Below, in pieces: positions 27,132-27,677 of a stretch of 64,000 bases of DNA. Within the stretch, counting starts at the first letter, position 1; each line of letters starts with the position of its first letter. Made by a program: the position numbers and the translations under genes. Below the pieces are notes generated by a model. The model was not told where the DNA came from, ran no database searches, and worked only from the letters and a program-made list of their open reading frames with translations. The DNA comes from a virus (lineage: Duplodnaviria; Caudoviricetes), in the IMG/VR virus record IMGVR_UViG_3300029288_000066, positions 1 through 64,000 of that record. The stretch is one strand, 5' to 3'.

Positions 27132-27157
27132 ATTTCGCTTGAATGGGCGAGGAATAG
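27132..27157 (-). repeat. internal inverted copy of the cassette 1 circle junction
   Basis: reverse complement = 27320-27333 joined to 26901-26912, 26/26. Confidence 0.9.
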
Positions 27158-27200
27158 AGCCAACTCTTATAAATTGCTGTCCCATACCGACGGCATCTCG

Positions 27201-27339
27201 CTTGAACACAGAATAGCGGTAATTCACGCATTTTACCACCAAGCAACTGCAATTTATCCTGTATCTTTTTTCTCATTTATTTTAAAATTACATTTTAAAA
27301 AATGCTCAAAAACATACCGCTATTCCTCGCCCATTATAT
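27201..27339 (+). other. attC-like site 1
   Basis: CTTGAAC..GAATAGCGGTA / TACCGCTATTC..A|TTATAT; 27188-27207 is an inverted repeat of 26900-26919 (19/20). Confidence 0.8.
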
Positions 27340-27361
27340 GGCATTGCTCCCGCAATTTCTT

Positions 27362-27616
27362 TTAGTCTTTCTGTGGCTCATAAAATTTGCATTCTGTATT
27401 AATACCATCACAAAAAGTATAATTACTTTCTTCGTGGTTCATACACATCGAAGAAGTATGAGTGCAAATTTCACTACCTTCTTCTTTGCCTGAATTAATT
27501 GATTTTTCTTGTAGGAATCTGTCTTTTATAAAATACAGATACTCGTAATTATCTTCTGGAAATTCTTTTTCAATTTCTTTTATAAAATCAATTAATTCTT
27601 TTTCAAGTTGTTTCAT
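27362..27616 (-). CDS. cassette 2 ORF, 84-aa protein with C-terminal Cys cluster
   Basis: MKQLEKELIDF...CTHTSSMC..C..C. Confidence 0.65.
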   Translation of the reverse strand: MKQLEKELIDFIKEIEKEFPEDNYEYLYFIKDRFLQEKSINSGKEEGSEICTHTSSMCMNHEESNYTFCDGINTECKFYEPQKD

Positions 27617-27649
27617 AGCAATTTCAGTGTTTATGCCTACACACAGGCT

Positions 27650-27677
27650 GCAATGCCATATAACGTGCGGGCGGTTG
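27650..27677 (-). repeat. internal inverted copy of the cassette 2 circle junction
   Basis: reverse complement = 27786-27799 joined to 27334-27347, 28/28. Confidence 0.9.

What the first reader, a model, noticed from the sequence alone, without database searches (positions are those of the whole stretch)
27132..27677. Two cassettes carry a perfect inverted copy of their own circle junction
Seen in the sequence: the reverse complement of 27132-27157 (ATTTCGCTTGAATGGGCGAGGAATAG) equals the last 14 nt of attC1 (27320-27333) joined to the first 12 nt of cassette 1 (26901-26912), 26/26, including the atypical A in A|TT. The reverse complement of 27650-27677 (GCAATGCCATATAACGTGCGGGCGGTTG) equals the last 14 nt of attC2 (27786-27799) joined to the first 14 nt of cassette 2 (27334-27347), 28/28. 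These joined sequences exist only in the circular or tandem cassette, so they point to circular intermediates and place the crossover before TT. Both copies lie between the ORF start and the attC. Inference, two options. (a) A footprint of cassette genesis: template switching on the circle left the ORF flanked by perfect inverted repeats, which could explain the reversed ORFs. (b) A built-in anti-attC that pairs perfectly with the right arm (17-bp IR for cassette 2) and out-competes the recombinogenic fold, locking the cassette or allowing inversion. I know of no such element in canonical integrons.
Basis: partly seen in the sequence, partly recalled or inferred. Interest (0 to 1): 0.9.

Follow-up and report, generated by a model that had tools for sequence, protein, structure and literature searches.

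The report
Gene cassettes carrying their own anti-junction
Some swappable gene cassettes in bacterial viruses carry a built-in 27-letter mirror image of the seam that forms only when the cassette is cut out as a circle; it recurs in three phages, always matches that cassette's own seam, and most likely acts as a DNA-folding switch on cassette movement, which I could not find described.

Summary
Observation confirmed exactly (26/26, 28/28; expectation below 1e-10; identical in two other assemblies). It is not a one-off scar. The window is a 229-kb phage with an integron-like array next to a short Xer-like recombinase lacking the IntI I2 insertion. The same architecture occurs in two further phages: all 9 cassettes of a 43.7-kb phage and 2 of a third. 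Each copy is about 13+14 nt, centred on the crossover, usually 63-82 nt upstream of an intact bulged attC, and mirrors its own cassette's junction (224/234 complementary; 24 of 26 positions show two or more pair types). About 400 ordinary cassettes from about 100 related arrays lack it. Reversed ORFs are the norm without it (339/351), and no flipped segment was seen, so the genesis-scar and inversion ideas fail. Folding predicts that the copy out-competes the attC fold by 10-25 kcal/mol in the circle and 2-21 in the array. Best reading: a single-strand conformational off-switch (0.45); main rival: a self-splint that aligns the cassette ends for joining (0.25). Function is untested; raw reads were unavailable. 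The scan had noted these I2-less arrays before, but not this element.

The parts
26047..26847 (-). 266-aa tyrosine recombinase, divergent from the array; Xer-like, without the IntI I2 insertion
   Evidence: Pfam PF13495+PF00589; TIGR02249 147.5 bits, cut-off 265, match split in two; against VchIntIA (PDB 2a3v) residues 187-213 span 188-264
26883..26911 (+). attI-like site; crossover G26900|T26901
   Evidence: TATA-rich consensus ending G|TT, conserved at 43-55 nt from the integrase start in 69 distinct arrays
26901..27333 (+). Cassette 1 (double-site type), ends in A|TT
26901..26913 (+). Start arm S1 (about 11-13-nt recombinase arm), partner of both the copy and the attC1 left flank
   Evidence: family consensus
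26944..27090 (-). Cargo ORF1, 48 aa, no convincing family
27132..27157 (-). Anti-junction copy 1 (12+14 nt; centre 27143|27144), 63 nt upstream of the inner R'' crossover
27188..27336 (+). Inner bulged attC1 with its left flank (19/20 complementary to S1, mismatch at arm position 10 as in ordinary cassettes); R'' crossover 27206|27207
27334..27799 (+). Cassette 2 (double-site type), ends in G|TT
27362..27616 (-). Cargo ORF2, 84 aa, one 46% identical homologue, no family
27650..27677 (-). Anti-junction copy 2 (14+14 nt; centre 27663|27664), 78 nt upstream of the inner R'' crossover
27726..27802 (+). Inner bulged attC2 with its left flank; R'' crossover 27741|27742
27800..28318 (+). Cassette 3, ordinary type (no copy), reversed 129-139-aa ORF; attC3 nearly the same as an attC in another phage (L418)
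28319..28464 (+). Cassette 4, short decayed unit sharing its first 26 nt with cassette 1; no copy, no intact attC found
28465..28820 (+). Cassette 5, ordinary type; second copy at genome 118904-119253 fixes the crossover at + strand G|TT

Best explanation
The copies are a conserved part of a subclass of phage integron-like cassettes: a 27-nt anti-junction that gives the single-stranded cassette two exclusive folds. SHOWN by sequence: layout start arm S - segment A - copy (S' joined to R') - spacer of 63-82 nt - left flank | L - loop - right arm R; the copy tracks S and R base for base; the inner bulged attC is also kept. PREDICTED by folding: the copy pairs across the whole circle junction as a perfect 26-28-bp helix, displaces the left flank and the first ~10 nt of L, and leaves only the distal L:R stem (three-way junction). 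INFERRED: in the attC fold the two recombinase arms are about 7 nt apart on the L strand, as in attI, with 3-4 extra nt bulged on the R strand; the copy turns this centre into a rigid 10-11-bp duplex and stops 2-4 nt into the left arm, outside the 6-8-bp spacing that tyrosine recombinases need (own knowledge). The copy-paired fold would be the OFF state and the bulged attC the ON state. On the recombining (bottom) strand the attC arms precede the copy 5' to 3', so the ON fold can form first and be captured by integrase; a circle that loses its integrase relaxes to OFF. Net effect: less excision from the array and less stray insertion of free circles.
For: Covariation: own-junction match 186/192 over 8 distinct cassettes, best of 40320 permutations; 224/234 Watson-Crick, 24 of 26 positions with 2 or more pair types, sharp edges at 14 nt (7/9 then 2/9) and 13 nt (7/9 then 3/9). 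One cassette family in two phages differs at 4 of 13 S positions; the copy follows all 4 and the inner flank follows 2, so both pairings are kept. The inner R'' base is always C, while the copy has T opposite A and C opposite G. Centre-to-R'' distance 63-82 nt in 9 of 10. Copy helix dominates the predicted ensemble; scrambling it restores R:L and S:flank pairing in 5 of 8 circles, including both window cassettes; gap to the attC state 9.8-25.5 kcal/mol (circle) and 2.1-21.3 (array). [quoted passage not shown]
Against: No experiment. These cassettes do move (positions 1-2 at attI, duplicates in one array, one family in two phages), so the lock cannot be absolute; a 10-25 kcal/mol gap is large for integrase to overcome, and the kinetic argument is not modelled. 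S-to-inner-flank pairing is looser than in ordinary cassettes (exact run of 6 nt or fewer in the six distinct G001 cassettes, 8-9 in the window; about 13% in ordinary ones), and A|TT is frequent, both of which would also fit the copy being the active partner. An array lock would not need S' and R' to be exactly contiguous. G001 cassettes are related, so the independent cases are fewer than 12. Arm positions are inferred from consensus, not from footprinting.
Confidence: 0.45

Rival explanations
1. Self-splint or active partner strand: the copy pairs with both cassette ends and holds the 3' end of S' and the 5' end of R' side by side as a nicked duplex, guiding joining into a circle (by the integrase after cleavage at the two array junctions, or by a ligase acting on a linear single strand); or the perfect helix is itself the substrate of this I2-less recombinase. 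It would promote, not block, movement.
For: S' and R' are contiguous with no gap in every case, and the crossover base covaries (A:T in 6, G:C in 4). Inner-flank pairing is relaxed and A|TT is enriched. The integrase lacks I2. Symmetric 13+14 length. G001 attC sites are very long (238-668 nt in 7 of 8), where help in bringing ends together would be useful.
Against: About 400 ordinary cassettes are handled by the same integrase family without a copy. The inner attC, with its invariant C, extrahelical C and bottom-strand G:T pairs, is conserved, so it is still used. Window attC sites are short (58, 127 nt). No left arm lies in attI register on the perfect helix. No reverse transcriptase in either genome.
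Confidence: 0.25
2. Functionless but self-maintaining: an old inverted duplication of the junction is kept identical by templated repair (template switching or repair inside the paired hairpin), so covariation reflects copying, not selection.
For: Near-perfect identity, with mismatches mostly in attI-distal cassettes (c3c, c4, c5). In G001 c1 the copy is followed by a stretch resembling an inverted L arm. One cassette in L402 has the head but a non-matching copy and still integrated. Quasi-palindrome correction is an established process (own knowledge).
Against: Fixed edges at 13/14 nt and conserved 63-82-nt spacing across at least four attC families; copying would give ragged lengths. 9 of 9 cassettes in one genome retain it.
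Confidence: 0.13
3. RNA-level role: the minus strand is the mRNA, and the two halves of the copy close two abutting 13-14-bp helices that process, stabilise or regulate translation of cargo transcripts.
For: All cargo ORFs are on the strand that also forms the helices; in the array each half pairs separately.
Against: An RNA role does not need the exact circle junction; open frames run through the copy (G001 c2, 95 aa); no Rfam match; no terminator called on the minus strand.
Confidence: 0.08
4. Inverted recombination sites for flipping the cargo segment relative to the attC, as in invertible DNA switches.
For: Segments are bounded by 12-17-bp perfect inverted repeats; in the double-stranded circle there are two inverted 26-28-bp sites. 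IntI1 can invert DNA between double-stranded attI sites (PMC4792948).
Against: No flipped attC-bearing segment in any complete cassette, and the ORF-less A segments all read the same way (by inspection); three assemblies of the window agree.
Confidence: 0.05
5. One-off genesis scar that explains reversed ORFs, or an assembly chimera.
For: The sequence is exactly what a template switch on a circle would write; raw reads were not seen.
Against: Same architecture in three phages and five samples; reversed ORFs in 339/351 ordinary cassettes; identical in independent assemblies.
Confidence: 0.04

Closest known systems
Integron gene cassettes and attC sites (IntI1/attI1/attC; V. cholerae IntIA/VCR; PMC5027507, PMC5371416, PMC4792948)
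   Same: Divergent recombinase, attI, G|TT crossover, cassette start complementary to the R'' flank, bulged hairpin with bottom-strand G:T pairs, circular intermediate implied.
   Different: A second, perfect partner for the circle junction inside the cassette; A|TT crossovers; recombinase without I2; ORFs reversed; whole ORFs inside the attC loop in the related phages. I found no paper describing an internal inverted junction.
Phage-borne integrons and CALINs (Qi et al. 2023, PMC9892861)
   Same: attC-delimited cassette arrays in phage genomes.
   Different: The paper does not mention Bacteroidota/Flavobacteria phages or reversed cassettes, and describes only inverted 7-nt core motifs at array boundaries, not a junction copy.
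IS110 bridge RNA / IS1111 seekRNA (PMC11208160, PMC11187229; listed, mechanism from own knowledge) and IS200/IS605 DNA guide sequences
   Same: A nucleic-acid segment of the element base-pairs with sequences on both sides of a recombination point.
   Different: Here it is DNA in cis, 27 nt, contiguous, with a tyrosine recombinase; a guiding role is only a rival reading.
Invertible DNA switches bounded by inverted sites (2-micron FRT, Hin/Gin, Bacteroides invertons; own knowledge); scan notes on CPR serine-recombinase elements with an inverted spare attP (e1-1024168, e1-2047220)
   Same: An element that carries an inverted copy of its own joined ends.
   Different: No inversion seen; the copy co-exists with a single-strand hairpin site and is shorter than a full two-arm site in attC register.

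Membership tests
Integron (classical) | IntI integrase with the I2 insertion | tested here: not met
   TIGR02249 below cut-off; about 50 residues shorter than VchIntIA between the catalytic K region and HxLRH
Integron (classical) | attI site next to the 5' end of a divergent integrase gene | tested here: met
   conserved TATA-rich site ending G|TT in 69 arrays
Integron (classical) | attC hairpins with R''/R' cores, cassette start complementary to R'' flank, bottom-strand bias | tested here: met
   (bottom strand folds more stably in all 9); geometry differs (2-3 versus 5-6 nt central bulge; A|TT in cassette 1)
Integron (classical) | Cassettes move as units with crossover at G|TT | tested here: met
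   second copy of cassette 5 with exact G|TT ends; one cassette family at different positions and in two phages
Integron (classical) | ORFs in sense orientation, expressed from Pc | tested here: not met
   339/351 reversed in this phage family
Integron (classical) | Single-strand exchange on folded attC with replicative resolution | not testable with these tools
   needs recombination assays
Invertible DNA switch | Both orientations of the bounded segment occur | tested here: inconclusive
   none flipped in assemblies; raw reads unavailable
Bridge/seek RNA-guided recombination (IS110/IS1111) | DEDD recombinase and a structured non-coding guide RNA | tested here: not met
   tyrosine recombinase; no Rfam match in the related arrays
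Retro-element-driven cassette formation | Reverse transcriptase in the element or genome | tested here: not met
   no PF00078 match in G000 (82% complete) or G001 (complete); a host enzyme is not excluded

The most novel reading that the evidence does not exclude
These cassettes are self-splinting mobile units: the internal 27-nt DNA guide pairs with both ends of the cassette and directs their joining, so a linear single strand can be closed into an attC-bearing circle. Together with the precise ATG-to-stop ORF swaps seen in the same chassis, this would give a testable route by which new integron cassettes are made.
Probability: 0.2. Interest if true: 0.93.

Novelty: new variant of a known kind. 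Interest (0 to 1): 0.78.

Why it matters
attC recognition is understood as one hairpin with bulges. Here natural cassettes keep a second, mutually exclusive partner for the same junction, with compensatory changes at nearly every position. Either cassettes can encode their own recombination rate through a DNA folding switch, or the recombination or circularisation step uses a cis DNA guide. Both can be tested in standard attC assays with 27-nt mutations. The same cassette chassis shows unrelated ORFs exchanged exactly from start to stop codon, which bears on the open question of how gene cassettes are created.

Tried and rejected
Direct DNA and protein searches for the window's cassettes 1 and 2 in viral contigs found nothing; the one ORF2 homologue had no DNA. 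Scans for the G001 attC family found only G001. No match among cultured phages (only 36% identical Cellulophaga integrases). About 62 linked cassettes next to bacterial (mostly Bacteroidota) relatives show no copy. Integrase-lineage explanation: the window integrase is not in the G001/L402 clade, and its nearest relatives with DNA (L416, L418) carry ordinary cassettes, so the trait travels with the cassette; L419 could not be parsed by my caller. Recombination models that cut at the crossover (top-strand insertion, attC x secondary site) were worked through on paper: they predict the diverged flank inside and the perfect one at the attC, the reverse of what is seen. Pairing of the spacer with the displaced L arm is seen in G001 c1, c3 and c5 but is not conserved. 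The L294 versus G001 difference of three cassettes is not counted as integrase excision, because it fits homologous deletion or misassembly between two shared heads. My cassette caller is heuristic (some false calls at chain ends; it took the copy for the attC arm in window c2 and L013 c2), so denominators are approximate.

Full report
Observation. Both inverted copies are in the sequence at the stated coordinates: 26/26 and 28/28, including the A of the atypical A|TT end of cassette 1. By base composition 4e-11 and 3e-13 such matches are expected in the genome. A Logan contig and an ENA contig are 100% identical over the region.

Setting. The window is the start of a 228,886-bp virus record. 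The gene at 26047-26847 (minus strand) is a 266-aa tyrosine recombinase. It scores below the integron-integrase cut-off and lacks the segment that holds the I2 helix in VchIntIA (I2 defined in PMC4792948). Its closest bacterial relatives are mostly in Bacteroidota, which suggests but does not prove the host group. Upstream lies an attI-like site and an array of five units. A second copy of cassette 5 elsewhere in the genome ends exactly at G|TT on both sides, fixing the crossover on the + strand.

The family. From about 160 loci with related integrases a heuristic caller found 402 distinct cassettes in 98 arrays. Ordinary cassettes start with an arm of about 11 nt that is complementary to the attC left flank except at position 10 (5% complementary, mostly A against G, i.e. 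a G:T pair on the bottom strand). 339 of 351 ORF-bearing ones are reversed. None has an inverted junction: exact spans reach 4+4 nt (null maximum 5+5), and the best mismatch-tolerant match 40-110 nt upstream of the attC is 16/24.

Recurrence. One array, L013, showed the same pattern in its first cassettes. It belongs to a complete 43.7-kb phage (G001) whose array wraps the contig ends; all nine cassettes carry a copy (the last has the S half and no right arm found). A third phage, found through its 78% identical integrase (L402), has a matching copy in cassette 2, a copy with one mismatch in cassette 3 (right arm off-contig), and a non-matching remnant in cassette 1. So the architecture is rare (3 of about 100 arrays) but shared.

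Anatomy. Each such cassette reads: start arm S, segment A, copy (S' joined directly to R'), spacer, left flank and L arm of an ordinary bulged attC, loop, right arm R. The copy centre is 63-82 nt upstream of the inner R'' crossover in 9 of 10 cassettes (229 nt in one). Over nine distinct cassettes complementarity is 224/234 within 13 nt each side, 24 of 26 positions show two or more Watson-Crick pair types (the two invariant ones are the TT), and it ends sharply after 14 nt on the R side and 13 nt on the S side. Each copy fits its own junction best (186/192; 1 of 40320 permutations). The base at the crossover covaries with the copy (T opposite A, C opposite G) while the inner attC always has C. 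G001 cassette 1 and L402 cassette 2 share the same right arm but differ at 4 of 13 S positions; the copy follows all four and the inner flank follows two. The copy is complementary at arm position 10, so it is not simply another left flank. The G001 cassettes are related, so these counts overstate independence; the window's two cassettes belong to different attC families and its integrase is in a different clade, whose other members with DNA carry ordinary cassettes. The trait therefore travels with the cassette.

Folding. With DNA parameters the copy helix dominates the bottom-strand ensemble in circle and array; scrambling it restores the attC pairings in five of eight circles, including both of the window's. 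The distal L:R stem survives, giving a three-way junction. The cost of forcing the attC R box is 9.8-25.5 kcal/mol in the circle and 2.1-21.3 in the array. These are equilibrium predictions without protein, supercoiling or folding order.

Mechanism. Shown: a conserved, covarying second partner for the circle junction, kept together with the normal attC. Predicted: the two folds exclude each other. Inferred: the copy covers the S arm and the bulged centre and stops just inside the left arm, so it would set the two arms 10-11 bp apart instead of about 7, a spacing that tyrosine recombinases do not use (own knowledge). Since competing folds are known to lower attC recombination (PMC5371416), I take the copy-paired fold as an OFF state that damps excision and inactivates free circles (0.45). 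The strongest rival is the opposite function, a splint or active partner strand (0.25): exact contiguity, tolerance of A|TT and looser inner-flank pairing all fit it. Passive maintenance by templated repair (0.13), an RNA role (0.08), inversion (0.05) and scar or artefact (0.04) are weaker.

The circle and crossover inferences hold. The genesis-scar explanation of reversed ORFs fails because reversal is the family norm without the copy. No flipped segment was found in any complete cassette. The anti-attC idea stands as the leading, untested hypothesis.

Comparison with what is known. The system works like an integron but fails two defining tests (I2 insertion, ORF polarity). Seven literature searches found no description of an internal inverted junction in cassettes; the library lacks most subscription papers. 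The paper on phage integrons (PMC9892861) does not cover it. Earlier notes of this scan describe the I2-less arrays and, in unrelated serine-recombinase elements, an inverted spare attP; none describes this element. I rate it a new variant of a known kind, interest 0.78.

Noticed in passing
G001 array (L399/L400; L294, L295) and L402:550-792: Unrelated cargo ORFs (49, 46 and 80 aa) sit in the attC loop of one cassette chassis, exchanged exactly from ATG to TAA between shared flanks (heads 80-93%, tails about 90% identical); the flanks AAAATTA / TAATTTT are complementary, so the ORF forms the tip loop of the stem. A possible clue to cassette creation.
   Followed up: partly
ordinary cassettes in L002-L171: Exact complementarity between cassette start and attC flank stops at 9 nt in 210 of 402 cassettes and reaches 10 in only one; position 10 is a conserved bottom-strand G:T pair. 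The start arm resembles a Xer dif arm (resemblance from memory, not tested).
   Followed up: partly
window 26913-26922 and 28331-28340; L402 cassette 3; G001 c3a, c3b, c5: A C-rich motif (GCCGTCGCAC / GGCTTCCGCAC) follows the S arm or the R' half of the copy, giving the paired circle a rough two-fold symmetry. Unexplained.
   Followed up: no
genome G000 118904-119253 (outside the window): Second copy of cassette 5, 93% identical, inserted at an attI-like TATAG|TT with no integrase nearby (only one integrase in the genome).
   Followed up: partly
window 28319-28464: Cassette 4 shares its first 26 nt with cassette 1, then diverges; probably a decayed relative without copy or attC.
   Followed up: partly
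L013:1897-2289 and L401:966-1364: A small GIY-YIG nuclease gene overlaps the integrase stop codon in two phages of the G001 clade; absent next to the window's and L402's integrases.
   Followed up: no
L402:1065-1730: A 221-aa DNA methyltransferase gene lies wholly inside the attC loop of a cassette whose anti-junction copy no longer matches.
   Followed up: partly
L418 cassette 2 (about L418:4420-4545): A 123-nt gene-less cassette made of nested hairpins with its start-arm complement repeated twice.
   Followed up: no
L305 / G001 cassettes c3b and c5: Two cassettes share the first ~65 nt but differ from the copy onward; c5's copy matches its inner flank better than its present start, suggesting a head swap by recombination in segment A.
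   Followed up: partly
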